Assembly: GCA_049303675.1 (NCBI GenBank)
Contig: JBAQNJ010000001.1
Coordinates: forward strand, 135,494 to 199,493
Reading direction: 5' to 3'
Length of the DNA stretch: 64,000 nucleotides
From: Microgenomates group bacterium
GTDB taxonomy: Bacteria > Patescibacteriota > Microgenomatia > UBA12405
Both the position numbers and the translations under genes were made by a program. The notes beneath the pieces were generated by a model that saw only the letters and a list, made by a program, of their open reading frames with translations, made no database searches and was not told the DNA's origin. Shown here piece by piece: positions 858 through 32,266 of this stretch (the stretch's first letter is position 1; the number at the start of each line of letters is the position of its first letter).

Positions 858-2045
858 TTAGAGGGATTGTAATTTTAAATTCGTAATTAAATCACTATTA
901 ATCCCTTCATATCCCAATGCCCAAAATCCAATCCCCCCAACTTTCGCATTTTTGGCCAATTCAACTTTTAATTTCAGGCTTCTCTCATCTTCAAAATATG
1001 CCTGATGCCACTCATTTACATAATAGTATTCAGTCGTTTTTACGATTCTCTTTCCTATTTTTTTACTTTTTACTTTTGATTTTTGTATTTTCTCCTCCCA
1101 CGCTACCCACGGTGTCATACTCAACTCATCAAACTTTGTACCAGTAAATCCAATACTTTCCGTAAAAAATACTGTCCTCCCATATCTCCCCGCTAGTTGA
1201 GCACTTCCCCAGCTCTCATCAACTGTCGCCCACTCATATCCATAGAGTGGATAAGCCATAATTATCTTCTCAGCCTTCATATTAATTATGGCCATTTTAT
1301 CCACTATTTCCCTCACATTCCTCTCTCCCACCTCCGATCCAATTGGTGCCACTGGACCAGCATAGTCAGCCCCTGGTCGGTGAAAATCATAGGCCATCAC
1401 CACAATCCAGTCCACTACCCCATTCAATGCCTCCAATCTTTCTTTGCTTCCCTTGATAATTGTATTGGCAAACACATCTACCCCTATTTCCCCCCAGCCT
1501 CCCTTCTTAGCATCAGCAAAAAATCTTACAAAGTCGTCAGCCAAGATTCTCTGATTATCACTCATATATTCAAAATCAATATTAACTCCATCATAACCAT
1601 TACTTATTACTACTTCTCGGACATTATTTATCAAATTCTTTTTTGCCACTTCGTCAGCCATAAATTCTTTCAAATCATTATCATCAAACATTTTAATCGA
1701 CAAAATATTTTTTCCACCTGCCTGTTTTACAGATTTCTTAATTTGCAGGTAACTTTCATTATTAATTTTTTTGCTCTGGATATCCCACACTAGGCTCCCA
1801 TCTGTATTTACCTCTATTCCCGAAAATATCAACTGATCAATTTCCTTACCATATATTTTTGTTTTACCAATCATCCAGCTCGGCAAAAACCCCACTGTCT
1901 CCATCTTTTTATCCTCTTTTCTCTGAAAAATATTTCCCAGTCCTAGTGGTGTCAACAGATCCCCACCATCATCTTTTTGCCACTGAAAGAATATCCCCCC
2001 AATTATCAATAATATTATTACCAATCCCCCGATAAATCTTTTCAT
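858..2045 (-). CDS. glycoside hydrolase family 18 (chitinase-like) with N-terminal TM anchor
   Basis: GH18 catalytic motif DGVNIDFEY (DxxDxDxE) and an N-terminal hydrophobic helix. The C-terminus and stop codon are supplied by a repeat element. Confidence 0.75.
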   Translation of the reverse strand: MKRFIGGLVIILLIIGGIFFQWQKDDGGDLLTPLGLGNIFQRKEDKKMETVGFLPSWMIGKTKIYGKEIDQLIFSGIEVNTDGSLVWDIQSKKINNESYLQIKKSVKQAGGKNILSIKMFDDNDLKEFMADEVAKKNLINNVREVVISNGYDGVNIDFEYMSDNQRILADDFVRFFADAKKGGWGEIGVDVFANTIIKGSKERLEALNGVVDWIVVMAYDFHRPGADYAGPVAPIGSEVGERNVREIVDKMAIINMKAEKIIMAYPLYGYEWATVDESWGSAQLAGRYGRTVFFTESIGFTGTKFDELSMTPWVAWEEKIQKSKVKSKKIGKRIVKTTEYYYVNEWHQAYFEDERSLKLKVELAKNAKVGGIGFWALGYEGINSDLITNLKLQSL

Positions 2046-2321: not shown

Positions 2322-2350
2322 AAGTTATACAGTAAATATGTAAATCAGGG

Positions 2351-2424
2351 TGGGCAATGATAGACTCGAACTATCGACCCCCGTCTTATCAGGACGGTGC
2401 TCTAACCAACTGAGCTAATTGCCC
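2351..2424 (-). tRNA. tRNA-Ile (anticodon GAT)
   Basis: The reverse complement reads GGGCAATTAGCTCAGTTGGTTAGAGCACCGTCCTGATAAGACGGGGGTCGATAGTTCGAGTCTATCATTGCCCA. It has a 7-bp acceptor stem, GTTCGAGTC T-loop and anticodon loop CUGAUAA (GAU). CCA is not encoded. Confidence 0.85.
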
Positions 2425-2492: not shown

Positions 2493-3443
2493 TTATTGTC
2501 CATCATCAATTTTCCACATTGTTGGTTTTGCCTTACTCACCGTCGGAGTACCCAGCAATCTTCTTGTTGGCGCTACAACTGTCGGAGTAGCCGTTGGCCC
2601 ACAAACACAGTTGACACTTCCAGTACAACTAGCATTTCGACAAACTCCATAGAAAGTGGGCAGCTTTATCGGTGATTTTCCATCGTATTTTTTTGGTAAT
2701 ATTTCTGCTACTTTTGGACAAATCCGAACCATCTCATTTATTGTTGTCCTGTCGATAGCCTGATTTGTCTCCAGTTTTTTGAGCATCTCCACCGGCAATT
2801 TGGACTCACAAGTCCACCATATCGGAGTACAAGTCATTCCTGCCCCACACCCCATAGCTGAATTTCCACACCGACTCCCACATCTACCTCCACCCACCGG
2901 TGGACCCATTGTTGGAGTAGGACTATTTCCACTTTTATAATAGCTTGTGTTATGTTTGGCAATATCCCATGTCGCCTTTTGTCCATTAATCATTAATGTT
3001 CCCCATCCCACTTTTATTTCCCCACTCTCACTATTCAACGGTCTAAAAGTTAACTTGACCAATTCCACCGCCCCCGCTTTTTCCTCATCTAAAGTCACCA
3101 TTCTAAACATTTTTGCCCCGTTTCCCTCACCACTCAGATCATCATTTAAAATCGAATATCCATTTTGAGGTGTTGCCCCTACAAATTCCAAATTTTTATA
3201 ATCATACCCTACCCAAAATTCTGCCCCTACCAATTTGTCATCACTTCTCCCCGTATCCGCCCAGACGTGCACTTCAAATTCCTTACCCACAGTAGTCAAC
3301 ATATTACTCGGCAATATTGACGAACTGGTCTCCGCCGCTGCCGCCCCTCTTTTTAGATTTTGATTTTTTTGCACCAGATATGCCCCACCCAGCAGAGCAG
3401 CCAGTAATATTACAATTGATAGTCCTCTGAAAAAACTTTTCAT
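2493..3443 (-). CDS. secreted Cys-rich protein (signal peptide, C-terminal cysteine cluster)
   Basis: N-terminal MKSFFRGLSIVILLAALLGGAYLV signal-like segment. The C-terminal third has more than 14 Cys (CGSRCGNSAMGCGAGMTC...CVCGP). Confidence 0.55.
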   Translation of the reverse strand: MKSFFRGLSIVILLAALLGGAYLVQKNQNLKRGAAAAETSSSILPSNMLTTVGKEFEVHVWADTGRSDDKLVGAEFWVGYDYKNLEFVGATPQNGYSILNDDLSGEGNGAKMFRMVTLDEEKAGAVELVKLTFRPLNSESGEIKVGWGTLMINGQKATWDIAKHNTSYYKSGNSPTPTMGPPVGGGRCGSRCGNSAMGCGAGMTCTPIWWTCESKLPVEMLKKLETNQAIDRTTINEMVRICPKVAEILPKKYDGKSPIKLPTFYGVCRNASCTGSVNCVCGPTATPTVVAPTRRLLGTPTVSKAKPTMWKIDDGQ

Positions 3444-4396
3444 CCTTGTTTACCCATTAAATAATATTTTTTCCAAATCGCAAAATCACTTAAGTCAATT
3501 CTCCTATCATGATTAAAATCAGCTACCCAAGGACCGTTGTATTCAAACGAAGTGATCGGTATCCCTATGAATTTCCAGTAATCTCTTTTCCAAATCGCAA
3601 AATCAACCAAGTCTACTTTCCCATCTCCATTAGCATCTCCATTTATAACAACTCCACTTCCACACACCATCATTCTTTGGGAATTTTGATGAGCTCCGTT
3701 ACAACATTTGTCACATGAAGTGGTCAATGGATCACCCTGACCACATACGTACCCATCATTAAAACAAGTGGTAGTTGGTGTCACCTCCAAAACATCTCTC
3801 ACCACACAACGATTATTTACTGCCACGCAACTTTTTCCCTCAGGTGGGGCTAGGTCAATACACGCCATATCCTTCGTTTTGTTCACACATGTTTCTCCAC
3901 ACCAACCACAATTCATCATCACTGGGGGTTTTTCTACTACCTTAATTGTTACCGTAAACGCCGCTCCACCCACATAATAACAATCAGGTGGGCTTACCGC
4001 GTTGTTGCAGGCCTTTCCATCAATATACAATTTCTCCACATAATTACCCACGTTTCTAGTTTTGGGTACTATTACTCGTACCCCTACATTTGGCCCTTCA
4101 CCCACTTCAAATTGTTGTTTAAACGTCGTCATTCTCTTCACATACACTCCACTCTCATTTGTATATTCCAACAACCCCCCAGATGTCCACATTTTAGTAT
4201 CATACAAGGTTCTGCCTGCCGCATTTTTAAAAATCACCGCCGAGCGAAAGCCACAATTAACTTCACCTTTAGTACATTCAATTACCGGTGGCACATTATA
4301 GTTATCAACTACATAGCTCACAGCCAACGCATTTTTTCCCGATATTACCCACAAACTCCCTACCAAAGTCCACATTCCAATAATTATTTTTCTCAC
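3440..4396 (-). CDS. secreted Cys-rich protein with C-terminal dockerin-type repeat pair
   Basis: Signal peptide MRKIIIGMWTLVGSLWVISG. Two Ca-binding dockerin-like repeats: DANGDGKVDLVDFAIWKRDYW and DFNHDRRIDLSDFAIWKKYY. Confidence 0.6.
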   Translation of the reverse strand: MRKIIIGMWTLVGSLWVISGKNALAVSYVVDNYNVPPVIECTKGEVNCGFRSAVIFKNAAGRTLYDTKMWTSGGLLEYTNESGVYVKRMTTFKQQFEVGEGPNVGVRVIVPKTRNVGNYVEKLYIDGKACNNAVSPPDCYYVGGAAFTVTIKVVEKPPVMMNCGWCGETCVNKTKDMACIDLAPPEGKSCVAVNNRCVVRDVLEVTPTTTCFNDGYVCGQGDPLTTSCDKCCNGAHQNSQRMMVCGSGVVINGDANGDGKVDLVDFAIWKRDYWKFIGIPITSFEYNGPWVADFNHDRRIDLSDFAIWKKYYLMGKQG

Positions 4397-4405
4397 ACTA
4401 TAAAT

Positions 4406-5314
4406 CTATGCCTTTTTCAAAAACATTTCAACCACTAGTTTGGCCACATTAATTTTGGTAGATTCTTCAAATCCCTTAAACTGACACTGTCTATTTACTT
4501 CCAAAATATAGCTCTTATCGCGCTCATCCTTCATAATGTCCACTCCACAATAATCCAGTCCACATACTTTAGCCACCTTTTCCGCCAACATTTTATCTGT
4601 CTCTGACAACTTGTATGTTTCCACTTCACCCCCTAGGCTATAATTACTTCTAAATTCCGCCCCTACTGCCGATCTTTTCATCCCTCCTATCGCTTTCCCA
4701 TCCAGCACAATCACCCGTATATCCCAACGTGTCGGTAAATACTTTTGCCACAGGAACATTCCTATATTCTTCTCATTTATTTTTTTGACAAACTTTTTTT
4801 CTGCCTCCCAGTTATCAAACTTTCGTACCGACTTACCCTGATACCCTTTTTCATGTTTGGCAATTATTGGCCATCCCCAAATATCTCCCCCCATATTGCC
4901 ATTTAATATTTGTTCTTTTGTATAAAAAATATTTGTGGGAACAATTGGTATGTTATTTTCAATAAACACTCCATGTTGGCTAATTTTCCCCATTCTGGTC
5001 CAGTTCAAATATCCCTCATGATTAGCACAAAATATTTCTTTTTGTAACAATCTTATCGCCAAATTTCTCCCCTCAGTATACTTTCCCGACACTGTCCCCG
5101 CCACTCGGAACCACATACCGATACTATTTTCCTTCGTTACCTCCACCCCTTTTACCAACACTCTTGGTTTTTCATTATTGAGATCAAATGTCATGTCTCG
5201 GTACAAGGCCCGATTCACCTCCACTCCCAACTTCTTGGCCTCCATCTCCAGCCTATCTACCTCAAACTGACTTTGTTTAAGCGACATGGTAAAAGTGACA
5301 ATTTTGCGATTCAT
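4406..5314 (-). CDS. RimK-family ATP-grasp ligase (alpha-L-glutamate ligase-like)
   Basis: ATP-grasp motifs: KHEKGYQGKSV, GGMKRSAVGAEFRSNYSLGGEVE, CGLDYCGVDIM...LEVNRQCQFKGF (RimK-like). Confidence 0.75.
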   Translation of the reverse strand: MNRKIVTFTMSLKQSQFEVDRLEMEAKKLGVEVNRALYRDMTFDLNNEKPRVLVKGVEVTKENSIGMWFRVAGTVSGKYTEGRNLAIRLLQKEIFCANHEGYLNWTRMGKISQHGVFIENNIPIVPTNIFYTKEQILNGNMGGDIWGWPIIAKHEKGYQGKSVRKFDNWEAEKKFVKKINEKNIGMFLWQKYLPTRWDIRVIVLDGKAIGGMKRSAVGAEFRSNYSLGGEVETYKLSETDKMLAEKVAKVCGLDYCGVDIMKDERDKSYILEVNRQCQFKGFEESTKINVAKLVVEMFLKKA

Positions 5315-5347
5315 ATATATAGTATATTTTTAAACTTTATAAACTTT

Positions 5348-6442
5348 TTAACTTTCAACTTTTAAACTCGAAAGAAATAATACTATTTCTTTTGGTACAT
5401 CGATTCCCGTCGCCTGCATAAATCCCTTAAACTGTGGCCCCTTATTTACTTCCCAAATTACCGGCTTGCTCCTATCAAAATCTCTAAATGCCACATCTAC
5501 CCCTGCCACCGCCAATCCACATACCCTTGCCGCCTTTACCGCCAATTGTTTTATCTCTTCTGGCAAATCGGCTACTTCCACCGCGCCACCAGCACTATAA
5601 TTATTTCTAAACTCACTCTTATTCTGTGACGATCTCTTCATTACTCCCAGTACTTTTTCTCCCAACACCAGCACTCGATAATCCCCATCATTAGGTATAT
5701 ATTCTTGCAACATATATCTTTTTCCTTCTTCCGTCTCCGACTTTCTCAGTTTTCTTACCAACTCTTCCATTTCCTCTAAATTATCCGCTTTATACACTCT
5801 CGTCCCTCTGTCCCCCCCACTACCTTTTACTATCACCGGAAAAATAATCGACTCGCAGTCAATAAATTTTTCGCGCGCAGTCACCTGCCCGTCCGGCAGG
5901 CGGGTCTGAGTGGCGTTCGTACGAAGGCGCGAGCACGAAAAATTTTGTTGACGAGAGTCGTCACTATTTTTCATCGTTTCATACAAATACCACAAGCTTC
6001 CATAAATCGTTTTAGGCACATCTATCCCCGCCTTCTTCAAGGCCAACATTTGATATGCCTTGCAAGCCATACTCGGCTTGCCGTTCAAAATAATCGGATC
6101 AACAATTATCGGTTTTTTCTTTAATTCGTAATTCGTAATTTTTAATTCGTAATTAATTAGATCCACCTCTTCCCAGTGTTTTCCGGTTGTTCTAAAAAAT
6201 AACACATCATAATCATTTATTTGCAGCCATCCCTCATTTTTAATTGTACGGGCGGTCCCTTGTGGCCGCCCTTCTAAATTTCCCCTAATTTTAACTCTCA
6301 GCTCAGTCGTATCAAAACACACCCGATTATATGACACCAAATCCAATCTCACTCCCAACTTTTTGGCCGCCTTTTTAATCAGCACCAAATGCTGACTAAT
6401 CTTCCCTCCAAAAAATAACGCTATTTTTGTTTGATTTTTCAT
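5348..6442 (-). CDS. RimK-family ATP-grasp ligase carrying two in-frame repeat insertions
   Basis: VIVKGSGGDRGTRVYK, EFRNNYSAGGAVE, CGLAVAGVDV...WEVNKGPQFKGF. Insertions encode INYELKITNYELKK (6121-6160) and a 95-nt GC-rich hairpin segment (5870-5965). Confidence 0.7.
   Translation of the reverse strand: MKNQTKIALFFGGKISQHLVLIKKAAKKLGVRLDLVSYNRVCFDTTELRVKIRGNLEGRPQGTARTIKNEGWLQINDYDVLFFRTTGKHWEEVDLINYELKITNYELKKKPIIVDPIILNGKPSMACKAYQMLALKKAGIDVPKTIYGSLWYLYETMKNSDDSRQQNFSCSRLRTNATQTRLPDGQVTAREKFIDCESIIFPVIVKGSGGDRGTRVYKADNLEEMEELVRKLRKSETEEGKRYMLQEYIPNDGDYRVLVLGEKVLGVMKRSSQNKSEFRNNYSAGGAVEVADLPEEIKQLAVKAARVCGLAVAGVDVAFRDFDRSKPVIWEVNKGPQFKGFMQATGIDVPKEIVLFLSSLKVES
5870..5965. repeat. 95-nt GC-rich multi-hairpin insertion inside the second ATP-grasp gene
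   Basis: cgcgcgcagtcaCCTGCCcgtccGGCAGGcgggtctgagtggcgTTCGTACGAAggcgcgagcacg. Strongly GC-skewed relative to flanks. Read in-frame as SRLRTNATQTRLPDGQVTAREKF. Confidence 0.65.
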
Positions 6443-6545
6443 AAAATATTAAAAAATATATCGAAGCCATCTTTTTCTAGCGACTTTGAACGTGGGCGAC
6501 CACATTCACCGGAGCAAGAAAAATGGTGGCGAGAATTATTTTTTA

Positions 6546-7958
6546 TCATATTTTTTTAGCACTAATCAAAAACCCCTCCAAATCTTTACGTCCCAATAAA
6601 AATTTTGTCCTCAATTTATTTCTATCCGCCACATTCACTGCTGTTGTCACCTTCTTCCCATTCAACCAAAATGTTGCCCCCACCACTGGCCTGTCCTTGT
6701 TTTTACCGAGACTCGATCGATAATGTCGATAATACAGTACTCGACTCCCTTCCATCAATCCCAACTTTTCCGCCAAAGTTCGATCAATTGAACTCCTAAA
6801 CGCCCCCGTATCAATTTTTGCCCTCACCTCTACTACCCTATGTTTTCCTAGTTTCAATATTGGACTCTTACTCATGTTTGGCCTAAACCCCTTAGGCACC
6901 TTTACTTTAATTATTTCAATTGGTTGAACTGTTTTAGTCCGCTCTTTTTGTTCTACCTTCTCGAAAAAGCTTTCTCCAAACAAATACTTGGACAATGTCA
7001 CAGCATGGTTAGTACTCCTTACGTCGATATCTTCCACTTTATCCATTCTAGCTTTCAGTCCGGCTTTATTACAAATTTGAATCGACAACCCAGGTCGTGA
7101 ATTTACTTCTAGTACCATTGGTCCCCGTTCTTTATCCAACACTACATCTACTCCCAAAAAGCCTAGGCTGGGTATCGCTTTCTGACTATTCACCGCCGTT
7201 TCCAAAATTTCTCGCCACAGCGGTACTTTTATTCCATTTACTTTTATCCATTTCTTTTTGCCATGATCATATAGTTTTTTTATTTCCTCGCCCTTACCCT
7301 CAATTCCAAAAGTAGTTATTCCTGTGGCCAGATCTACCCCTAGTCCCATCGCTCCCTGCTGCAAATTGGCTTTGCCGCCACTTTTCTCTGTTGGAATTCT
7401 AAACATCGCCATTACTGGCACCCGATTATAAACAATCACCCGAATATCTGGTGTCCCCGATTTGGTAATAGCCAAAAACATTGGATGAATCTTGATCCGC
7501 TCTTCTACCAACACCCCATCTCTCATCCCATGAAGACTATATTTACCCACCAATATATCTCGACAATGATCTTTTATTTCCTCCACCGTTACTGTCTTCC
7601 CATCCATCATCTGCCATTTCAGTTCTTCCGACTCAGTTTTAGTTTTTAAATTTGAAATTTTAAATTTTAAATTTTTTAATTGTCTTCTGACGATTAAAAT
7701 TCCCTCTCCCCCATATCCCGATATTGGCTTGATTACAAAATTTCCTTCCAGTTTTTCCCACTCAAATCTATCAACTCCTTTTTCACTTCTAATTCTTTTA
7801 ATCAATTTGGGCACACTTACCCCTGCCTCATTCAAAATATTCTTGGTTCTGTATTTACTATCAGCAATCGACCGACCCTCCGAACTATTCTTCCTTAGGT
7901 ATACCTTATTTCTCTCATTCTTGGTCAAAAATTGCTTATATTGTTTTAAATTAAACAT
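6546..7958 (-). CDS. ATP-grasp ligase (RimK-like) fused to C-terminal retropepsin-like domain (PF05618/DUF785-like)
   Basis: N-terminal ATP-grasp (VIKPISGYGGEGILIV, QQGAMGLGVDLATG, VLEVNSRPGLS). The C-terminus VVEVRAKIDTGAFRSSIDRTLAEKLGL...ATFWLNGKK resembles the RimK-associated aspartyl-protease-like fold. An AATTTGA-repeat insertion encodes KNLKFKISNLKTK. Confidence 0.65.
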   Translation of the reverse strand: MFNLKQYKQFLTKNERNKVYLRKNSSEGRSIADSKYRTKNILNEAGVSVPKLIKRIRSEKGVDRFEWEKLEGNFVIKPISGYGGEGILIVRRQLKNLKFKISNLKTKTESEELKWQMMDGKTVTVEEIKDHCRDILVGKYSLHGMRDGVLVEERIKIHPMFLAITKSGTPDIRVIVYNRVPVMAMFRIPTEKSGGKANLQQGAMGLGVDLATGITTFGIEGKGEEIKKLYDHGKKKWIKVNGIKVPLWREILETAVNSQKAIPSLGFLGVDVVLDKERGPMVLEVNSRPGLSIQICNKAGLKARMDKVEDIDVRSTNHAVTLSKYLFGESFFEKVEQKERTKTVQPIEIIKVKVPKGFRPNMSKSPILKLGKHRVVEVRAKIDTGAFRSSIDRTLAEKLGLMEGSRVLYYRHYRSSLGKNKDRPVVGATFWLNGKKVTTAVNVADRNKLRTKFLLGRKDLEGFLISAKKI

Positions 7959-7984
7959 TTTCTATACTTAATACCTAATACTTA

Positions 7985-8743
7985 CTACTTAATACCATTT
8001 CTTGTCCTAATCGCCTTTCTAAATCTCTTGATTTCCGACAACCGAATACCCGTATAATTACCCACTCCAAAATTGACAATTAGTCCCAGTAGCAGACACA
8101 ACTCAGGATATTTCAAAATTATTTCTTGAACACTTCCGATACTCATTACTCCTGCCCCCACAATCGCCAATATCAAAGTTCCCATTGTTAGTTTTTTGGC
8201 CTCATTTCGGCTTTTAGCTAGTTGCGTTCTGGCAAATTCTTCGGTCAGCAGAATCATAAATAATATTGGGAAAATCGATATTTTATTCATCTCCAATATT
8301 GGGATAAATGACAATCCCAATACCAACACCAATGTTCCGATTGAGATAAATACCAAATTAATAGCTCTCGATGGCCAAAAATGCAGCTTATATCTTCGCA
8401 ATCCCCAGTTGCATATTATCGACATTAGCAAAATCAAGGCAAACAACAGTAGACCACTCGCAATTCCAGTCGCCAAAAACGCCACTGCCATCATTGATGG
8501 CATAAATATTCCATATCCCGATACCCCCAGCACATAATGAAGTCCAGAAATTAGTGTCGCCAATAATGGTAACAATAATAGTAGTACTATCGTGTTTTCT
8601 GACACCCCTCTTTCAATCGCCATCTGAGACGCCACCTTTATACTGTTAATCCCGTTCCAAGTATCCACTTTACCTGCAGCCAATACCGGGTTCACTCCCA
8701 GCCACATTCCTGCCACTACCATCAGAATCCACATTTTTCTCAT
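7985..8743 (-). CDS. polytopic membrane protein (about 7 TM), function unknown
   Basis: Hydrophobic segments throughout. Lies immediately downstream of the ATP-grasp trio. Confidence 0.5.
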   Translation of the reverse strand: MRKMWILMVVAGMWLGVNPVLAAGKVDTWNGINSIKVASQMAIERGVSENTIVLLLLLPLLATLISGLHYVLGVSGYGIFMPSMMAVAFLATGIASGLLLFALILLMSIICNWGLRRYKLHFWPSRAINLVFISIGTLVLVLGLSFIPILEMNKISIFPILFMILLTEEFARTQLAKSRNEAKKLTMGTLILAIVGAGVMSIGSVQEIILKYPELCLLLGLIVNFGVGNYTGIRLSEIKRFRKAIRTRNGIK

Positions 8744-8842
8744 AAAGTGAGGGGAAAATTATTAACTTAATTGAGCGTATTATAGCATCATTTTACCACA
8801 GTCAACACCTCAAATTTTTACGGTAAACAAGGCATTATTATC

Positions 8843-8883
8843 GGTAATTCGTAATTCGTAATTTTTAATTCGTAATTTAATTG
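8843..8883. repeat. AATTCGT heptamer tandem array (family R1), promoter-proximal copy
   Basis: ggtaattcgtaattcgtaatttttaattcgtaatttaattg. Homologous arrays at 250-287, 869-888, 6121-6160, 16736-16772, 20513-20546, 21251-21286, 23193-23227, 27526-27557, 30520-30562, 32097-32136 and 47014-47047. Confidence 0.85.
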
Positions 8884-8889
8884 TATAAT
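8884..8889 (+). promoter_or_regulatory. extended -10 (TGTATAAT) only 5 nt before the first pilin ATG, inside an AATTCGT repeat array
   Basis: Sequence ttgtataatcagatATG. Implies a very short or leaderless 5' end. Confidence 0.35.
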
Positions 8890-8894
8890 CAGAT

Positions 8895-9221
8895 ATGAAT
8901 CGTCTCTTAGCTATTGCCATCGATCCCCCCACCGGCACCGGCAAAACAATCAGTCAAACTTTTCCCTCTCTCTCGTCCCTTGCCTCTGTCATTGTCAAAA
9001 ATTCCATTACCATCGCCGGAATTCTTTTACTTGCCCTTTTGATTTTTGGAGGTCTTACCTTTATAATTGGGGCAGGTTCAGCCGATGCCAAAAAGTCCGC
9101 TCAGGGCAAAGCCGCCATCACTGATGCCCTAATTGGATTTGTGGTTGTTCTCTTTGCCTACGCCATTGTCCAAATTGTCGAAGTTATTACTGGCATTAAA
9201 ATCTTAAATTCAGGATTATAA
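8895..9221 (+). CDS. T4SS pilin-like protein (VirB2/TrbC-like), paralog 1
   Basis: Two TM helices separated by the SADAKKSAQGKAAITDA loop. First of six tandem paralogs. Confidence 0.6.
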   Translation: MNRLLAIAIDPPTGTGKTISQTFPSLSSLASVIVKNSITIAGILLLALLIFGGLTFIIGAGSADAKKSAQGKAAITDALIGFVVVLFAYAIVQIVEVITGIKILNSGL

Positions 9222-9222
9222 A

Positions 9223-9621
9223 ATGAAACAAAAGTTTGTCACCATCTCACTCTTTCTTATACTTAATACTTTCTACTTAATACTCGCTACTCCTATTTTA
9301 GGACAAGGTGTCGTCGGCTCTATCACCAATCCTCTCTCCAAATATACCGGTACTCAGGGTCAGGGTTTGTTCAAATTTATTGGCAATGTCCTCAAATTTA
9401 CTGGTACTATCGGCGGTATTTACATGATAATTCAACTAATTACCGCTGGTTTTGCCTACATCTCTGCTTCTGGTGATCCAAAGCTTACCACGACCGCTTG
9501 GACCCAAATTTGGCAAAGTATCTTGGGTATGGTTATCATTGCCTCTGCCTTTGTCATCGCTGCCATAGTCGAGAGACTTACTGGTATTAAAATTTTATCC
9601 CCTGTCATTTATGGACCCTAG
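9223..9621 (+). CDS. T4SS pilin-like protein (VirB2/TrbC-like), paralog 2
   Basis: Signal peptide plus TM-ASGDPK-TM architecture. Confidence 0.65.
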   Translation: MKQKFVTISLFLILNTFYLILATPILGQGVVGSITNPLSKYTGTQGQGLFKFIGNVLKFTGTIGGIYMIIQLITAGFAYISASGDPKLTTTAWTQIWQSILGMVIIASAFVIAAIVERLTGIKILSPVIYGP

Positions 9622-9967
9622 ACAATTACTCGCCGATGTCAACATTCCTACCCTTACCGGTCCGGGTATCGATCCCAAAGGCAACGGTACTCTAGCCCTA
9701 GAAAAAATTATTGGCCAAGTTATTGGAGTTCTTACAATTGTTGGTATTATTTACTTTATCATTCAGGTCATCCTCGGTGGTTACGCTTTTCTCAGTTCTC
9801 AGGGTGATCCCAAAGCGATGGAGTCAGCCCGCAAGCGTCTTACTGATGGCGTTCTTGGTCTAACTATTATTATAGTGGCAGTCGGTCTCGGTTCCCTCAT
9901 TGCCACTTTAGCAGGAATCAACAATCCCCTAGATATTGGCGCATTATTTACCCAAATGGGCCTCTAA
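9611..9967 (+). CDS. T4SS pilin-like protein, paralog 3
   Basis: TM-SSQGDPKAMESARKRL-TM. Confidence 0.65.
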   Translation: MDPRQLLADVNIPTLTGPGIDPKGNGTLALEKIIGQVIGVLTIVGIIYFIIQVILGGYAFLSSQGDPKAMESARKRLTDGVLGLTIIIVAVGLGSLIATLAGINNPLDIGALFTQMGL

Positions 9968-9969
9968 TT

Positions 9970-10362
9970 ATGAAAAAATTATTCCTGACTCTCATACTTA
10001 CTACTTACTACTTACTACTTTCTACTTCTCCGGTACAGGCCATCATCTGCAATCCAGTCCTAAAGAATTGTGATTCCAGCACCGCCCCCAAAGCCTATTT
10101 CAACGGTGTCCTCTCTGCTGTTATTTCCATCTTTTTTATAGTCGGTATCATTTATTACATCTGGCACATCGTTTTTGCCGGCTATCACCTTATCTCCTCC
10201 GAGGGCGATCCCAAACGTTGGGAAACGGGTAAGAATGAAATCACTTATGCCACTATCGGTCTTTTTATAGTCTTCTCTATTTTTGCTATTCTCAAGTTTG
10301 TCGGTACTGTTCTCGGTATTCCTGGTCTTGGCAGTCTTACCATTATGTGGCCAACTCTTTAA
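9970..10362 (+). CDS. T4SS pilin-like protein, paralog 4
   Basis: Signal peptide, then TM-SSEGDPKRWETGK-TM. Confidence 0.65.
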   Translation: MKKLFLTLILTTYYLLLSTSPVQAIICNPVLKNCDSSTAPKAYFNGVLSAVISIFFIVGIIYYIWHIVFAGYHLISSEGDPKRWETGKNEITYATIGLFIVFSIFAILKFVGTVLGIPGLGSLTIMWPTL

Positions 10363-10395
10363 TAATTATTTATTTATTGTTATAATTTATTCAAT

Positions 10396-10773
10396 ATGAT
10401 CAAAAAATTCAAAGAACTCGTCCAATATGCAGCCATCGCCGCTCCTGTTATGGCCCAAGATATTAAATTAATTCCCAATGACAGCAATTGGAACAACCTT
10501 ACCAAATTAACCTTTGGTAGTATCGTTTCTGGTGCTATTTCTCTTGTCATGTTAGTTGTCGCCCTAGTTTTCTTCTTCATTCTCATCTGGGGTGGTCTCA
10601 AATGGGTTATGTCCGAAGGCGATCAAAAAGCCGTTGAAGCCGCCCGTGGTCAAATTACCAATGCTCTCATTGGTTTGGCTATCGTCTTTGCCGCTTTTGC
10701 CATCATGAAGCTTATCGAAACAATTTTCGGTATTCAGCTTCTCTCTGGCTTCAAAGTTCCTACCTTTCAATAA
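10396..10773 (+). CDS. T4SS pilin-like protein, paralog 5
   Basis: TM-SEGDQKAVEAARGQI-TM, followed by an intrinsic terminator. Confidence 0.65.
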   Translation: MIKKFKELVQYAAIAAPVMAQDIKLIPNDSNWNNLTKLTFGSIVSGAISLVMLVVALVFFFILIWGGLKWVMSEGDQKAVEAARGQITNALIGLAIVFAAFAIMKLIETIFGIQLLSGFKVPTFQ

Positions 10774-10792
10774 GGTATTTTCTTCAAACTCA

Positions 10793-10817
10793 AAACCCGT
10801 CGCAAGACGGGTTTTTT
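10793..10817 (+). terminator. rho-independent terminator after pilin paralog 5
   Basis: aaaaCCCGTCgcaaGACGGGtttttt: a GC stem followed by a T-run. Confidence 0.7.
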
Positions 10818-11217
10818 GCGGTATAATTCCCATATGAAAACTCGCATTTTATTTTTACTTTTTACTTTTAACTTTTTACTTTTTACTTTTGCGCCCCCAG
10901 CGCAAGCCCAATCCGCTTGGTCCGGCAAGTGTGTCACCAATACTGATGTGGCTACAGTTCAGGGGCTCGAATGTCTTTTTGGCAACATCCTCCAGGTCAT
11001 TGTCGGTCTGGCTGGCATCGCCTTTTTTGTTATGTTTATTAGCGGTGGCTTCCAATATCTCTTTAGTAGTAGTGATGCCAAAAAGGTGGCCGCTGCCTCT
11101 TCTACCCTCACCATGGCTATTCTTGGTCTGGTTGGCATCATCGCCTCTTTTCTGATTCTCCAATTCATCAAAAAAATCACCGGCGCCGATGTCACCAATT
11201 TTGTCATCCCCAGCTAA
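10816..11217 (+). CDS. T4SS pilin-like protein, paralog 6 (signal peptide, Cys pair)
   Basis: Signal peptide ...APPAQAQSAW, then TM-SSSDAKKVAAAS-TM. Confidence 0.6.
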   Translation: MRYNSHMKTRILFLLFTFNFLLFTFAPPAQAQSAWSGKCVTNTDVATVQGLECLFGNILQVIVGLAGIAFFVMFISGGFQYLFSSSDAKKVAAASSTLTMAILGLVGIIASFLILQFIKKITGADVTNFVIPS

Positions 11218-12563
11218 TGAAGAAACCTATTTTATTATGTCTTATTCTAGTTTCTAGTTTCCAGTTTCCAGTTTTCAATGCGCCTTTGGCGCACGCCATC
11301 AATCCCATTATTATCACCAATGCCGACAAAGGTGCTCCTCCCGCTACCAATCCCCTTTCCGAGGACTCAAATTATTACCCCAACGACGTTAGTCAAATTT
11401 GCAAAGATACATATACAATATCGCAAACTTTTGACCCCCAGATTAGTGGCACTACCACCGACGCCAACGGCAACACTGTCAACACCTATGTAACCCAAGA
11501 TATCAACAGAATCGAAAGTGCCCCTCCCGCCTTCAACTCTGGCTACTGGACCAATTCCGCTGCTTTCAATCAAGGTGCTTTCTCTGGTTCCAATTTCAAA
11601 GGCAATGCTTCCGATCCACTTTCTCGCAACGATGCCCTACTTTCCTACAATCCCTTTAGCGATATTGGTTCTCTGGGAGCCTCCACTCGGCTTATTCCCG
11701 ATGATATTCGTACTTGTTTGGTCGGTCAGCGCCTTGTTCGTGCCGTCAAATTAGCCAGTGGTAGCGGCGATGGTAGTCCTGTATCCAATCAGCAAGTTGC
11801 TTGGCAAAACGGTAGCAAAATTATTTCCACCGTCGACAGCACTGACCATTCCGATTGGCAAAAAGTCCAGCTCGATGATATTGCCATTACTCTCAAGGGC
11901 AATTCCAAATTATTCTTCGACCCGAGTGATGATTGTTATGCCACCGATCCCACACCCAAATCCGGTCCGCTTGGTAAATTTACTTCACCCACTAGTGATT
12001 CTTATCAAAAAATTAGTGAATCAGATGCCAATAGTTTATACCTAACTATAGGCACAATTGGCAATGGTCCCAGTCGCCGCGACGTCTGTGTTTACAACGA
12101 TGATCATGGCCAGCCAGTTGATCCAGAATGTAAGACCACCAATATGCCCCAAGGTGAATATCTCGCCTCTGCCAGCCCCAATTCCATCATCAATTATGAA
12201 GGTCAAAACATTCCACCAGTTCCAGTCTGTCAAAAATCCGGCACCACTCTGATTCAAGACAAACCCAATGGCCTCCTCTATGCCCTCAAGCAAGCCCTCG
12301 ATAATTTTGGCCAAGTAGTCGACCAGACACTTACTTTTTCTCGGTCAACTACTTACGAATATCATATCGATCCCAATTTACAAAAAAACATGAGTATCGA
12401 CGAAGTCGCCAATAAAAATTTGCTTCCCGACTATATCATCACCGAAAATGGTTTAGATAGTTCTAGCCGAGCTTTTTCTTCCACTGATGGTTATAGTATC
12501 GACCCCGGCAACAATGCCACTCGCCAGATTCTCACCCGTCAACTTTTACCAGAATCTTGGTAG
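11217..12563 (+). CDS. secreted protein, possibly pilus/T4SS surface component
   Basis: Signal peptide MKKPILLCLILVSSFQFPVFNAPLAHA (partly encoded by the GTTTCYA repeat). No TM segments. Position between pilins and VirB6-like gene. Confidence 0.45.
   Translation: MKKPILLCLILVSSFQFPVFNAPLAHAINPIIITNADKGAPPATNPLSEDSNYYPNDVSQICKDTYTISQTFDPQISGTTTDANGNTVNTYVTQDINRIESAPPAFNSGYWTNSAAFNQGAFSGSNFKGNASDPLSRNDALLSYNPFSDIGSLGASTRLIPDDIRTCLVGQRLVRAVKLASGSGDGSPVSNQQVAWQNGSKIISTVDSTDHSDWQKVQLDDIAITLKGNSKLFFDPSDDCYATDPTPKSGPLGKFTSPTSDSYQKISESDANSLYLTIGTIGNGPSRRDVCVYNDDHGQPVDPECKTTNMPQGEYLASASPNSIINYEGQNIPPVPVCQKSGTTLIQDKPNGLLYALKQALDNFGQVVDQTLTFSRSTTYEYHIDPNLQKNMSIDEVANKNLLPDYIITENGLDSSSRAFSSTDGYSIDPGNNATRQILTRQLLPESW
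11241..11279. repeat. GTTTCYA heptamer tandem array (family R5), shared CTTATTCT prefix
   Basis: cttattctagtttctagtttccagtttccagttttc. Related arrays at 12609-12652, 23349-23400, 46291-46329, 46644-46677 and 52541-52574. Confidence 0.8.
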
Positions 12564-12570
12564 TACTTAT

Positions 12571-14085: not shown

Positions 14086-14112
14086 AAAAACTTTTCGATA
14101 AAAAGATAGTAT

Positions 14113-18461: not shown

Positions 18462-18513
18462 CCTTTTTGTCCTTCTCCCTTTCTTGTCCACCGAAGCTTT
18501 AGCGTAGGAGGGT

Positions 18514-20487: not shown

Positions 20488-20586
20488 CCATTATATCATT
20501 TGAATCTGACCAAATTCGTAATTCGTAATTAATGATTAGTAATTAGTTTTTTACCGCATTTTTTCCTTTTTTATTCCGCAACGTAT

Positions 20587-20901
20587 TTACAGCCTTACCG
20601 CTTCTATATCCAATTTTCGCCCAGAAGCTCTTCTTAACAAGGCAAAAGTTTCAACATCCCCTATAACCGGTTCTCCTATCCTGCGTGCAGTTTCGTTGTA
20701 CAGATGTGCAGCCAAACTTATTGCATTTTCAACAATCAGTGCCTTTCCAGATTTTAGTCCTTCTCCCTTATTTGAACTACGCAAATGGACATCTTGATCA
20801 ATAATATATTGTTCAGTCCTATCCAACAAATATTTCGATGGACTATTGATCATTCCATATAACATGTTTATTTTAGAAGTCCCCATTTCATATCCTATCA
20901 C
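20587..20901 (-). CDS. hypothetical protein (104 aa)
   Basis: ORF only. Confidence 0.3.
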   Translation of the reverse strand: MIGYEMGTSKINMLYGMINSPSKYLLDRTEQYIIDQDVHLRSSNKGEGLKSGKALIVENAISLAAHLYNETARRIGEPVIGDVETFALLRRASGRKLDIEAVRL

Positions 20902-20902
20902 A

Positions 20903-21253
20903 CTACATCAATTCCATCAATTTTTCTCTATCATCACCCTTCCCTTCCCTGACCCTAAACTTATGCCTACACTTGGTACACTCGTATTTAATTTGAAATT
21001 CGAAATTTGAAATTCGAAATTCTGTCCCCACCGGTTCCATCATCCCCTGACAATCACTCTCTCTATCTCCGGGAATTATTCTATCCACGTGTTTAGCCCA
21101 CAAACATTTTGGGCAATGATCCGTATATCCATCCCCAATTACCTCATTTCCACAATTCCCACATATAAAATTTTCTATCTTTCTTAAAAAATTCCTCCTC
21201 CCCTCTTTCGTCAAAGAGGGGTTTGGGGGTGATTTTGTTCTAAAACTTTTCAT
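20903..21253 (-). CDS. RNHCP-domain zinc-ribbon protein
   Basis: CGNCGN...YTDHCPKCLWAKHVD matches the RNHCP signature. The N-terminus is encoded by a GC-rich hairpin element, and the body carries an AATTTGA repeat (ISNFEFQIKYE). Confidence 0.55.
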   Translation of the reverse strand: MKSFRTKSPPNPSLTKEGRRNFLRKIENFICGNCGNEVIGDGYTDHCPKCLWAKHVDRIIPGDRESDCQGMMEPVGTEFRISNFEFQIKYECTKCRHKFRVREGKGDDREKLMELM

Positions 21254-21280
21254 TCGTAATTCGTAATTATTAATTTGTAA

Positions 21281-31921: not shown

Positions 31922-31933
31922 TTCTGTCTCTAG

Positions 31934-32216: not shown

Positions 32217-32266
32217 GTTTATAACTTTAATAACTTTATGAACTTTATAAACTTTATAAACTCAGA
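32217..32266. repeat. AACTTTATR nonamer tandem array (family R3)
   Basis: ataactttaataactttatgaactttataaactttataaactc. Related arrays at 5331-5370, 27185-27225, 42709-42753 and 47311-47353. Confidence 0.8.

What the first reader, a model, noticed from the sequence alone, without database searches (positions are those of the whole stretch)
2493..8743. Cluster of three tandem RimK-type ATP-grasp ligases (one fused to a retropepsin-like domain) next to secreted Cys-rich/dockerin proteins and a 7-TM protein
Three consecutive genes encode RimK-like ATP-grasp enzymes. The third carries a C-terminal domain resembling the RimK-associated aspartyl-protease-like fold (PF05618-type), as in rimABK-like operons where RimK poly-glutamylates ribosomal protein S6. 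Three paralogs in a reduced genome suggest distinct substrates. The co-directional neighbours are secreted, cysteine-rich proteins, one with dockerin repeats, and a polytopic membrane protein. This raises the possibility of C-terminal amino-acid ligation or poly-amino-acid tailing of secreted or surface proteins rather than ribosomal modification.
Basis: inference. Interest (0 to 1): 0.6.

Follow-up and report, generated by a model that had tools for sequence, protein, structure and literature searches.

The report
Membrane-linked peptide ligase–protease gene cluster
A small-genome (CPR, Microgenomates) bacterium carries a conserved four-gene set: a seven-helix membrane protein, an amino-acid ligase fused to a retrovirus-type protease, and two further RimK-like ligases. 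It is a stripped-down relative of the Pseudomonas rlo stress-tolerance operon and most likely makes and trims an acidic peptide at the membrane, rather than modifying the ribosome or the neighbouring secreted proteins.

Summary
However, only two ligases (302 and 364 aa) are RimK-family paralogs. The third (470 aa) is a different ATP-grasp type (PF14397/TIGR02291, the ligase type of rloABC operons) fused to an intact retropepsin domain (DTGA). The 7-TM protein is PF14402, the membrane half of RloB without its transglutaminase domain.

In 59 of 59 testable metagenome loci, a 7TM gene sits directly upstream of a ligase–retropepsin fusion. It is followed by 0–3 extra ATP-grasp ligases. In other CPR lineages the fusion gains a MATCAP carboxypeptidase domain and the retropepsin domain erodes. 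The cohesin/dockerin Cys-rich genes are variable passengers: they follow the ligases in 5 of 14 related loci with readable downstream sequence, and none has an acidic C-terminus.

Best reading: this is a CPR variant of the Rlo system. Cytoplasmic ligases build an acidic (poly-α-glutamate-like) peptide, the fused protease cuts it, and the 7TM partner couples the process to the membrane. The product and the 7TM role are inferred, not shown.

Novelty: new variant of a known kind whose biochemistry is still unsolved. Interest is moderate.

The parts
7985..8743 (-). Membrane partner, 252 aa. It has a signal or anchor peptide, about 27 extracytoplasmic residues and 7 TM helices (PF14402 7TM_transglut). 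It corresponds to the C-terminal half of RloB and lacks the inactive transglutaminase domain.
   Evidence: PF14402 scores 80 bits. NF052267 RloB matches positions 312-506 of 508 only. It is 28% identical over 208 aa to residues 309-508 of a Legionella RloB-type protein (E 1e-17). Hydropathy and K/R distribution fit an N-out/C-in topology. The top 120 homologs are all 228-329 aa and carry PF14402 only. The most conserved motifs lie in predicted cytoplasmic loops and the tail.
6969..7958 (-). Ligase domain (residues 1 to about 330) of the 470-aa fusion. It is an ATP-grasp of the PF14397/TIGR02291 type, the 'alpha-L-glutamate ligase-like' RloC type. It is cytoplasmic.
   Evidence: PF14397 scores 196 bits and TIGR02291 scores 250 bits (cutoff 314). 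It is 37.7% identical to the TIGR02291 ligase of a Legionella rloABC-type operon. The AF2 model has pLDDT 81. Its best PDB folds are cyanophycin synthetase, RimK, ArgX and LysX. K77, D271, E284 and N286 are invariant in 55 homologs. There is no hydrophobic segment.
6546..6935 (-). Retropepsin (RimB/RloA-type, PF05618) domain, residues 342-470 of the fusion. The catalytic D383 lies in AKIDTGA (nt 6801-6821). The basic residues K381, R423, R446 and R457 are conserved.
   Evidence: PF05618 scores 35 bits. A profile of 17 domains hits PDB 9g59 (5e-10), 9g58 and 2pma, sharing K-x-DTGA, RPV and D/N-R motifs. These motifs are invariant or nearly invariant in 120 close homologs and in alignment A1. 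Coordinates were checked by translation.
5348..6442 (-). RimK-family ATP-grasp ligase A (364 aa). It is cytoplasmic and has an intact catalytic set.
   Evidence: PF08443 scores 102 bits. TIGR00768 scores 127 bits (cutoff 143). No equivalog is reached. The best PDB match is E. coli RimK, with only the C-terminal half aligned; the K, FRNNxxxGG and D/E/N Mg-site motifs are kept. It follows the fusion gene in every related genome locus long enough to show it.
4406..5314 (-). RimK-family ATP-grasp ligase B (302 aa). It is a paralog of ligase A with a divergent N-terminal (acceptor-side) half.
   Evidence: PF08443 scores 96 bits and TIGR00768 scores 123 bits. It is 44% identical to ligase A over 158 C-terminal residues, while the N-terminal halves are barely alignable. 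The best PDB match is Pseudomonas RimK.
3440..4396 (-). Secreted Cys-rich protein (318 aa, 16 Cys) with a C-terminal type I dockerin. It is a variable passenger, probably not part of the core system.
   Evidence: Dockerin_1 scores 30.5 bits. There is a 9-bp gap to ligase B and a 4-bp overlap with the next gene. Homologs follow the ligases in only 5 related loci. Its C-terminus is ...YYLMGKQG, which is not acidic.
2493..3443 (-). Membrane-anchored or secreted protein (316 aa, 10 Cys) with a weak cohesin-like N-terminal half. It is a variable passenger.
   Evidence: Cohesin scores 18.9 bits, below the cutoff of 24.1. It has an N-terminal hydrophobic anchor. It is variable among related loci.
2349..2424 (-). 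tRNA-Ile (GAT). It marks the probable downstream end of the transcription unit.
   Evidence: ARAGORN result.
858..2045 (-). Membrane-anchored GH18 family protein (395 aa). It is a frequent but not constant downstream neighbour.
   Evidence: PF00704 scores 111 bits. A GH18 gene lies 0.2-3.6 kb downstream of the ligases in 8 related genome loci (L004, L009, L012, L013, L017, L018, L020) and in metagenome locus L097.

Best explanation
The core of the finding is a four-gene operon (7985-8743, 6546-7958, 5348-6442 and 4406-5314, minus strand). It is a CPR (Microgenomates) variant of the RloA/RloB/RloC system.

Proposed mechanism:
1. In the cytoplasm, the TIGR02291-type ATP-grasp ligase and the two RimK-family ligases use ATP to add amino acids, most likely L-glutamate, stepwise to a carboxylate. 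The result is an acidic alpha-linked oligo- or polypeptide. The different N-terminal halves of the two RimK paralogs suggest different acceptor steps, such as priming versus elongation.
2. The retropepsin domain fused to the first ligase dimerises and cuts the acidic chain. It thereby sets chain length or releases the chain and may stimulate the ligase, as RimB does for RimK.
3. The 7-TM protein docks the ligase at the membrane through its conserved cytoplasmic loops and tail. It passes the product to, or across, the membrane.

What is shown: homology of all parts, intact catalytic motifs, cytoplasmic versus membrane location, and strict gene linkage.

What is inferred: glutamate as the monomer, division of labour among the ligases, and export by the 7TM protein.
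For: Homology to Rlo parts:
- The 7TM protein matches PF14402 and the C-terminal half of RloB.
- The ligase domain's best family is TIGR02291. It is 37.7% identical to the ligase of a canonical Legionella operon whose three genes score as RloA-like, RloB (472 bits) and TIGR02291 (436 bits).
- The retropepsin domain matches the solved PF05618-family chains 9g59/9g58 and 2pma, which Lormand et al. call RloA-like (PMC12239564).

Linkage:
- A 7TM gene lies directly upstream of the ligase-retropepsin fusion in 59 of 59 testable metagenome loci and in all 17 related genome loci with upstream sequence.
- It is followed by 0, 1, 2 or 3 extra ATP-grasp genes in 9, 23, 12 and 2 of 46 testable loci.
- Distant CPR lineages keep the 7TM-ligase pair in otherwise unrelated neighbourhoods.

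Activity:
- D-T-G-A is invariant or nearly so in the window's clade. So are K381, R423 and R446, the basic residues that by my alignment correspond to the polyGlu-binding K46/R114/R137 of RloA.
- The ATP- and Mg-binding residues of all three ligases are intact.
- The fusion is 70-83% identical across more than 100 Shapirobacteria and Woesebacteria clusters, which indicates strong selection.
- The AF2 model's nearest folds are peptide-polymerising or C-terminus-extending ligases: cyanophycin synthetase, RimK and ArgX/LysX.

Published biochemistry of relatives:
- RimK makes poly-alpha-L-Glu. RimB cuts polyGlu and stimulates RimK fourfold by direct contact, and RimB-RimK hybrids exist (PMC11957791).
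- RloA cuts runs of 8 or more Glu. Loss of rloB or rloC suppresses the defects of protease-null mutants (PMC12239564).
- Sequential RimK-family ligases (MyfA/MyfB) build a polyglutamate chain (PMC8141765).

Location: the three ligases have no hydrophobic segment. The 7TM protein has a signal or anchor peptide, 7 TM helices and basic cytoplasmic loops.
Against: - No product or substrate is identified for any Rlo-type system, including the Pseudomonas one, so glutamate and export are extrapolations.
- The ligase domain scores below the TIGR02291 trusted cutoff (250 against 314). The RimK paralogs score below the TIGR00768 cutoff, so specificity may differ.
- Here the protease is cytoplasmic and fused, whereas RloA is secreted. 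The logic of the Pseudomonas genetics (a periplasmic product that must be cleaved) may therefore not transfer.
- The 7TM model is of low confidence (pLDDT 64.6) and has no fold match (best E 0.87), so nothing supports a transporter fold.
- Pfam names PF14397 'sugar-transfer associated'. Relatives are fused to YdjC or sit next to DegT, and GH18 is a frequent neighbour. The acceptor could therefore be a glycan rather than a free peptide.
Confidence: 0.5

Rival explanations
1. The ligases add amino-acid or poly-amino-acid tails to the secreted Cys-rich, dockerin and cohesin proteins encoded just downstream, before or during their export.
For: The genes are co-directional and tightly packed, with a 9-bp gap and a 4-bp overlap. 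No minus-strand terminator-like site lies inside the cluster. Similar dockerin/cohesin-like pairs follow the ligases in five related loci, L001, L002, L004, L011 and L064.
Against: Nine other related loci with readable downstream sequence lack such genes: L009, L012, L013, L015, L017, L018, L020, L071 and L075. All more distant loci with the 7TM-ligase core also lack them. The C-termini (…LMGKQG, …KIDDGQ, …LVNIKK, …LLYQNN) are neither acidic nor conserved. Known RimK-type acceptors end in Glu.
Confidence: 0.07
2. Classical role. The two RimK-family paralogs glutamylate ribosomal protein S6 (or another cytoplasmic protein), and the fused retropepsin trims the tails as RimB does. On this reading the 7TM linkage is regulatory or incidental.
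For: The best solved relatives of both paralogs are bona fide RimK from E. coli and Pseudomonas. The retropepsin is cytoplasmic like RimB. RimB-RimK hybrids are known (PMC11957791).
Against: Both paralogs are far below the S6-ligase equivalog score (55 and 71 bits against 331) and below the RimK-family cutoff. Their N-terminal acceptor-side halves do not align with RimK. In the related loci examined they lie downstream of the 7TM-ligase pair. The number and type of such ligases varies from 0 to 3, which fits accessory steps of one pathway rather than a housekeeping ribosome modification. The rpsF gene of this genome could not be inspected, so this rival is not excluded.
Confidence: 0.1
3. Glycan- or cell-wall-directed ligation. 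The ligases attach amino acids or a short peptide to a sugar carboxylate or a cell-wall precursor at the membrane, and the peptidase edits the side chain. The 7TM protein would be the membrane acceptor, carrier or flippase site.
For: PF14397 is described by Pfam as 'sugar-transfer associated'. One relative is fused to a YdjC-like sugar deacetylase domain (P0258). In L021 a DegT aminotransferase and five further ATP-grasp genes follow the pair. A GH18 gene is a frequent downstream neighbour. The Pseudomonas rlo mutants have cell-shape and beta-lactam phenotypes (PMC12239564).
Against: The constant partners are peptidases (retropepsin and MATCAP) and not glycosyltransferases. The basic residues that bind polyGlu in RloA are conserved. 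The GH18, YdjC and DegT links are each seen in a minority of loci.
Confidence: 0.15
4. No export. The system is a membrane-regulated cytoplasmic polyglutamate (osmolyte or charge buffer) synthase and degrader. The 7TM protein would be a sensor that switches the ligase-protease on or off.
For: The protease is on the same polypeptide as the ligase and is cytoplasmic. The extracytoplasmic domain of the 7TM partner varies between lineages: none, PKD or inactive transglutaminase. That pattern is typical of sensor modules. The most conserved residues face the cytoplasm. Lormand et al. discuss glutamate-polyglutamate homeostasis under osmotic stress.
Against: In Pseudomonas the proteases are periplasmic and their loss is toxic only if rloB and rloC are present. 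This implies that the product reaches the periplasm. A bare 7TM with about 27 external residues has little to sense with.
Confidence: 0.15

Closest known systems
rloABC operon of Pseudomonas aeruginosa (Lormand et al., mBio 2025, PMC12239564). RloA is a secreted retropepsin, RloB an inactive transglutaminase fused to 7TM, and RloC a cytoplasmic ATP-grasp.
   Same: All three protein types are homologous and operon-linked. The 7TM_transglut membrane domain, the TIGR02291-type ligase and the PF05618 retropepsin with DTG and basic substrate-channel residues are all present.
   Different: - The 7TM protein lacks the transglutaminase domain.
- The retropepsin has no signal peptide and is fused to the C-terminus of the ligase, so it is cytoplasmic.
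- Two extra RimK-family ligases are present.
- The gene order is B-(C::A) rather than A-B-C.
- The host is a CPR bacterium, whereas the paper reports 96% of RloB hits in Proteobacteria.
RimABK / RimBK hybrid (Little et al., J Biol Chem 2025, PMC11957791; Grenga/Little et al. 2016, PMC4741518)
   Same: An ATP-grasp glutamate ligase works with a cytoplasmic retropepsin that cuts polyGlu. Fusion of protease and ligase in one polypeptide is known. The two extra ligases here are RimK-family.
   Different: In RimBK the protease is N-terminal to a true RimK. Here it is C-terminal to a TIGR02291-type ligase. There is no RimA. The system is linked to a 7TM protein. The RimK paralogs fall below the family and equivalog cutoffs.
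Sequential RimK-family cofactor glutamyl ligases (MyfA/MyfB for methylofuran, PMC8141765; CofF and MptN)
   Same: Several RimK-family paralogs act one after another on one growing glutamate chain. This is a model for why two or three ligases sit in one operon.
   Different: Those enzymes modify cofactors that CPR bacteria are not known to make (my own knowledge). They have no peptidase or membrane partner. Equivalog scores are 55-86 bits against cutoffs of 300-350.
Cyanophycin synthetase CphA1 (PDB 7wae)
   Same: It is the top structural match of the ligase domain. It is an ATP-grasp polymerase that extends a peptide C-terminus.
   Different: CphA also has a Mur-ligase-like domain and a primer-binding N domain. 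Sequence scores here are 26-42 bits against a cutoff of 850.
Tubulin tyrosine ligase (TTL/TTLL) and MATCAP detyrosinase cycle of eukaryotes
   Same: In sister CPR lineages the same ligase is fused to a MATCAP-family (PF08014) carboxypeptidase. An ATP-grasp ligase and a MATCAP peptidase therefore act on one peptide tail.
   Different: The window's own protein has no MATCAP domain. No tubulin-like substrate is known. The resemblance is by domain family only.

Membership tests
Rlo system (RloA/RloB/RloC) | ATP-grasp ligase of the RloC/TIGR02291 type | tested here: inconclusive
   TIGR02291 is the best family (250 bits) but lies below its cutoff of 314. The domain is 37.7% identical (E 2e-53) to a Legionella member that scores 436 bits. 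It is a homolog but not within the curated equivalog.
Rlo system (RloA/RloB/RloC) | [quoted passage not shown] | tested here: not met
   Only the 7TM half is present. PF14402 scores 80 bits and the RloB model matches positions 312-506 of 508. All 120 listed homologs are 228-329 aa with PF14402 only.
Rlo system (RloA/RloB/RloC) | Secreted (signal-peptide-bearing) stand-alone retropepsin (RloA) | tested here: not met
   The retropepsin domain forms residues 342-470 of a protein with no hydrophobic segment or signal peptide.
Rlo system (RloA/RloB/RloC) | Operon linkage of ligase, 7TM protein and retropepsin | tested here: met
   The 7TM gene lies directly upstream of the ligase-retropepsin fusion in 59 of 59 testable metagenome loci and in all 17 related genome loci with upstream sequence.
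Rlo system (RloA/RloB/RloC) | Catalytic DTG and basic residues that bind polyglutamate (K46, R114 and R137 of RloA); cleavage of runs of 8 or more Glu | tested here: inconclusive
   The motifs K381-x-D383-T-G-A, R423-P and D-R446 are conserved and align with the same motifs in PDB 9g59, 9g58 and 2pma. The correspondence to RloA numbering is inferred from motif position. Activity cannot be tested here.
RimK (ribosomal protein S6 L-glutamate ligase) | Score above the RimK-family (TIGR00768, 143.4) and S6-ligase equivalog (NF007764, 331) cutoffs | tested here: not met
   302 aa: 122.8 and 55.5 bits. 364 aa: 126.8 and 70.6 bits. 470 aa: 47.7 and 17.0 bits.
RimK (ribosomal protein S6 L-glutamate ligase) | ATP-grasp catalytic set: ATP-binding Lys, FRSNxxxGG loop and D/E/N Mg site | tested here: met
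   The set is present in both RimK-family paralogs in the alignments to E. coli and Pseudomonas RimK.
RimK (ribosomal protein S6 L-glutamate ligase) | An S6 (rpsF) protein ending in Glu-Glu as acceptor | not testable with these tools
   No S6 homolog was found in the window or in any fetched locus. The rest of the genome could not be read.
RimBK hybrid | RimB domain at the N-terminus of a RimK ligase | tested here: not met
   The domain order is reversed, with the ligase N-terminal and the retropepsin C-terminal. The ligase is PF14397/TIGR02291-type, not RimK.
LysX/ArgX amino-group carrier protein ligases | Equivalog score, and a small LysW-type carrier protein gene nearby | tested here: not met
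   LysX scores are 82 and 94 bits against a cutoff of 276. No small carrier-like ORF lies in the three intergenic gaps checked, and the 82-aa ORF is not conserved.
Cyanophycin synthetase | ATP-grasp domain plus Mur-ligase-like domain, with score above the cutoff of 850 | tested here: not met
   Scores are 26-42 bits. The only similarity is fold-level, to the ATP-grasp part.

The most novel reading that the evidence does not exclude
The 7TM protein plus the ligase-peptidase fusion, with a variable set of extra ATP-grasp ligases, is a widespread CPR machine. It would assemble a non-ribosomal, possibly hetero-, acidic peptide step by step at the membrane and display or export it on the cell surface of these episymbiotic bacteria. 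The MATCAP-fused sister forms would make it a prokaryotic counterpart of the eukaryotic tubulin-tail ligase/detyrosinase cycle. In that case the streamlined CPR version could reveal the still unknown product of the Rlo systems of Pseudomonas and Vibrio.
Probability: 0.2. Interest if true: 0.75.

Novelty: new variant of a known kind. Interest (0 to 1): 0.5.

Why it matters
The Rlo system was described only in 2025. It affects osmotic tolerance, biofilm formation, cell shape and antibiotic sensitivity in Pseudomonas, yet its product and the roles of RloB and RloC are unknown. That paper reported 96% of RloB hits in Proteobacteria.

This window shows that a reduced form is common and highly conserved in Microgenomates, with 70-83% identity of the ligase-protease fusion across many species. 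The form lacks the transglutaminase domain, has the protease fused to the ligase, and carries extra RimK-type ligases. The 7TM-ligase pair is the invariant core across CPR lineages.

The fusions (ligase::retropepsin, and ligase::retropepsin::MATCAP) independently support the idea that ligase and peptidase act on one peptide product. The four-gene cluster could be expressed in another host to identify that product. For CPR biology, it points to a conserved envelope-related peptide pathway in organisms that have very few biosynthetic genes.

Tried and rejected
- Direct PDB sequence search with the whole 470-aa protein found nothing. Only the isolated retropepsin domain and a profile of it gave hits.
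- Promoter and terminator scans gave counts no different from shuffled sequence, so there is no operon-boundary evidence beyond gene spacing and the tRNA.
- I looked for a small carrier or precursor ORF in the gaps 6443-6545, 8744-8894 and 2046-2492. Only short unconserved ORFs and a tRNA were found.
- I looked for acidic C-termini or polyGlu runs in all window ORFs. None lies in the cluster.
There were no hits.
- The T4SS-pilin-like gene array next door was considered as a functional partner and rejected. The adjacency is confined to the window's own clade and is absent from the distant loci.
- Iyer et al. 2009 (PMC3268129), which first defined these Pfam families, is not held in the library. 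Its predictions are not cited as evidence.
- No paper was found on the CPR version or on MATCAP-ATP-grasp fusions.
Curated HMM scores were used instead.

Full report
**Observation**

The window is part of a 998-kb contig of a Microgenomates-group (CPR) MAG, GCA_049287145.1. Between 858 and 8743 all genes lie on the minus strand. In order of transcription they are:

- a 252-aa membrane protein (7985-8743);
- a 470-aa protein (6546-7958);
- a 364-aa protein (5348-6442);
- a 302-aa protein (4406-5314);
- a 318-aa protein (3440-4396);
- a 316-aa protein (2493-3443);
- tRNA-Ile (2349-2424);
- an 82-aa ORF;
- a GH18 protein (858-2045).

The gaps inside the first six genes are 26, 103, 33, 9 and -4 bp.

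Family assignments come:

| Protein | Family hits |
|---|---|
| 302 aa and 364 aa | PF08443 RimK (96 and 102 bits) |
| 470 aa | PF14397 (196 bits) plus a C-terminal PF05618 retropepsin domain (35 bits) |
| 252 aa | PF14402 7TM_transglut (80 bits) |
| 318 aa | Dockerin_1 (30.5 bits) |
| 316 aa | Cohesin, sub-threshold only (18.9 bits, cutoff 24.1) |

**What the three ligases are**

The 364-aa and 302-aa proteins are paralogs. They are 44% identical over the C-terminal 158 residues, and their N-terminal halves are almost unalignable.

Their best solved relatives are E. coli and Pseudomonas RimK, again only over the ATP-binding half. The Lys, FRSNxxxGG and D/E/N Mg-site motifs are intact.

They score 123 and 127 bits on the RimK-family model (cutoff 143). 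They are far below every equivalog: RimK 55 and 71 of 331, LysX 82 and 94 of 276, MptN 85 of 350, and CofF 56 and 67 of 300. They are therefore RimK-family ligases of an unassigned subfamily.

The 470-aa protein is a different ATP-grasp. It has no significant BLASTP similarity to the other two, and its best family is TIGR02291, 'alpha-L-glutamate ligase-like' (250 bits, cutoff 314).

**The link to the Rlo system**

NCBIfam matched the 252-aa protein to the C-terminal 7TM part (positions 312-506 of 508) of RloB. It matched the C-terminus of the 470-aa protein weakly to the RimB and RloA models.

Lormand et al. (PMC12239564) describe rloABC in P. aeruginosa:

- RloA is a secreted retropepsin that cleaves runs of 8 or more Glu.
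- RloB is an inactive transglutaminase fused to 7 TM helices.
- RloC is a cytoplasmic ATP-grasp.
- Deleting rloB or rloC suppresses the defects of the triple-protease mutant.
- The product is unknown.

To get a canonical operon for direct comparison I searched plasmids. A Legionella adelaidensis plasmid carries three adjacent genes that score as RloA-like (about 99 bits), RloB (472 bits) and TIGR02291 (436 bits). The window proteins compare with them as follows:

- ligase domain: 37.7% identity, E 2e-53;
- 7TM protein: 28% identity over 208 aa to residues 309-508, E 1e-17;
- retropepsin domain: E 3e-5.

All three Rlo components are thus represented, but they are rearranged. The 7TM protein lacks the transglutaminase domain. 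The retropepsin is fused to the C-terminus of the ligase and has no signal peptide. Two RimK-family ligases are added.

**Is the retropepsin active, and on what?**

AKIDTGA lies at nt 6801-6821. In 120 close homologs, D-T-G-A, 'DRPV', 'NVADR' and 'LLGR' are invariant or nearly so. In a broader 17-sequence alignment, A380, D383, G385, A386, R423 and R446 are invariant, and K381 and R457 nearly so.

The profile of that alignment hits PDB 9g59 (5e-10), 9g58 (1e-8) and 2pma (2e-5). The entry 2pma is called RloA-like by Lormand et al.. The same K-x-DTGA, RPV and D/N-R motifs align.

By position these are the residues that Lormand et al. show to coordinate polyglutamate: K46, R114 and R137. That correspondence is my inference from the motif alignment. 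It supports an acidic substrate but does not prove it.

**Structure and location**

The AF2 model of the 470-aa protein (55-sequence alignment, pLDDT 81) has two domains joined by a disordered linker at residues 330-341. Its nearest PDB folds are cyanophycin synthetase, RimK, ArgX and LysX (E about 2e-9). All of these extend a peptide or protein carboxyl end.

None of the three ligases has a hydrophobic segment. The 7TM protein has a signal or anchor peptide, about 27 external residues and seven helices. Its K/R-rich loops (117-130, 172-186) and tail (227-252) are predicted to be cytoplasmic. Its most conserved motifs (HFWPxR, EEFxRT…, GNYTGxRxxEIxRF) lie in those cytoplasmic parts.

The 7TM structure model was poor (pLDDT 64.6) and gave no fold match. 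The role of the 7TM protein therefore remains inferred.

**Comparative genomics**

The fusion protein has more than 4000 homologs. The best 120 are 70-83% identical, and those that carry a source name are almost all Shapirobacteria or Woesebacteria. Nearly all carry both domains.

In 19 genome loci the order 7TM, fusion, ligase A, ligase B is kept wherever the contig extends. It is always divergent from six T4SS-pilin-like genes.

A search of 50%-identity representatives found 1981 relatives (E ≤ 0.001) with several architectures:

- two-domain fusions of 426-511 aa;
- stand-alone ligases of about 315 aa;
- ligase + retropepsin + MATCAP/DUF1704 fusions of about 800 aa;
- one ligase + retropepsin + second ATP-grasp;
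- one ligase + retropepsin + YdjC.

The MATCAP fusions occur in Peregrinibacteria and other Patescibacteria. They are always preceded by a 7TM_transglut gene, here with N-terminal PKD domains or bare. They are followed by 0, 3 or 5 further ATP-grasp genes in otherwise unrelated neighbourhoods. Those extra ligases are not orthologs of the window's RimK paralogs (19-33 bits).

A metagenome scan seeded with intermediate-distance fusions gave 80 loci. Annotation of those loci showed the following:

- A 7TM gene lies directly upstream in 59 of 59 testable loci.
- The number of extra ATP-grasp genes downstream is 0, 1, 2 or 3 in 9, 23, 12 and 2 of 46 testable loci.
- A stand-alone MATCAP gene is present in four loci (L035, L085, L094, L095).
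- D[TS]GA is present in 69 of 78 fusions.

Where MATCAP is fused, the retropepsin erodes. D[TS]GA is kept in 6 of 98 MATCAP fusions against 8 of 14 two-domain proteins. The R446 equivalent is kept in 12 of 98 against 12 of 14.

The invariant core is therefore the 7TM protein plus the ligase with at least one peptidase. The RimK-type ligases are variable add-ons.

**The secreted neighbours**

Dockerin/cohesin-like Cys-rich pairs follow the ligases in L001 (the window), L002, L004, L011 and L064. In nine other related loci the next genes are different: GH18 directly, a 153-aa membrane protein, or others.

No neighbour has an acidic C-terminus or a polyGlu run. They look like an independent cohesin-dockerin surface module that has landed in a variable slot. 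They do not look like the ligases' substrates.

**Mechanism proposed**

Three published findings are combined with the evidence above:

- RimK polymerises alpha-L-Glu, and RimB cleaves polyGlu and stimulates RimK by contact (PMC11957791).
- RloA cleaves polyGlu, and its loss is toxic only when RloB and RloC are present.
- Paired RimK-family ligases (MyfA/MyfB) build one glutamate chain stepwise.

The most likely working is as follows. Three cytoplasmic ligases build an acidic alpha-peptide. The fused, dimerising retropepsin cuts or releases it. The 7TM partner tethers the enzyme at the membrane and hands the product to the envelope. I give this a confidence of 0.5.

The homology and the gene linkage are shown. 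The monomer, the order of ligase action and the export step are inferred.

Four rivals remain:

- glycan or cell-wall ligation (0.15; the PF14397 'sugar-transfer' label and the YdjC, DegT and GH18 links);
- a sensor-regulated cytoplasmic polyGlu cycle without export (0.15);

**Novelty**

The system type is known: the Pfam families were defined from Iyer et al. 2009, which I could not read, and the genetics was published in 2025. The RimB-RimK hybrid is also known.

The following were not found in the searchable literature:

- the reduced 7TM protein;
- the reversed ligase::retropepsin fusion on a TIGR02291-type ligase;
- the added RimK paralogs;
- the MATCAP-fused sister forms;
- the wide, highly conserved CPR distribution.

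I rate the finding a new variant of a known kind, of moderate interest.

Noticed in passing
window 1-64000: GC skew on the + strand is strongly negative throughout (-0.10 to -0.48 in 2-kb windows). This holds over + strand genes (8895-14085) and on both sides of dnaA/dnaN (30563-33403). There is no sign change at the presumed origin region.
   Followed up: no
window 2349-2424 (-): A tRNA-Ile (GAT) gene lies between the 316-aa cohesin-like gene and the 82-aa ORF. It probably ends the ligase transcription unit. The 82-aa ORF (2073-2321) has no family hit and no homolog in related loci.
   Followed up: partly
window 8895-11217 (+): Six tandem small membrane proteins of the T4SS_pilin type (PF18895) are transcribed divergently from the 7TM gene across a 151-bp gap. 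The adjacency is kept in every locus of the window's own clade but not in more distant lineages. Large unannotated membrane or secreted proteins follow (11217-16560).
   Followed up: partly
L021, L022, L023, L024 (other CPR genomes); proteins P0246, P0394, P0420: These are triple fusions of about 800 aa: ATP-grasp (PF14397) + eroded retropepsin + MATCAP/DUF1704, the family of the eukaryotic tubulin detyrosinase. Each is preceded by a 7TM gene, with N-terminal PKD domains in L021, L022 and L024. Some are followed by 3-5 more ATP-grasp genes and a second MATCAP. No paper on this was found.
   Followed up: partly
window 2493-4396 (-); L002, L004, L011, L064: Recurrent pairs occur in Microgenomates. 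One member is a Cys-rich secreted protein ending in a dockerin. The other is a membrane-anchored protein with a conserved N-terminus (…LLAALxGAGxLVxKNQExR) and a weak cohesin-like region. Together they look like a small cohesin-dockerin surface display module.
   Followed up: partly
window 30165-30389 (-): A 74-aa ORF between rnpA and dnaA ends in …LFDEE. It is one of two ORFs in the window that end in two acidic residues. It has no Pfam hit, and its relevance to any glutamate ligase is unknown.
   Followed up: no
window 16773-24265: Other genes were noted: DUF6909 (562 aa, 513 bits), FtsH (18514-20487), an RNHCP-domain protein (20903-21253), and a 994-aa DUF4012 protein with an EEEEE run at residue 286.
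   Followed up: no
L106 (Legionella adelaidensis plasmid 5, NZ_LR134414.1, 29382-32310): A canonical rloABC-type operon lies on a plasmid. The retropepsin gene is annotated there as 'RimK/LysX family protein', which looks like a misnomer. Two C1-family peptidase genes lie next to it.
   Followed up: partly
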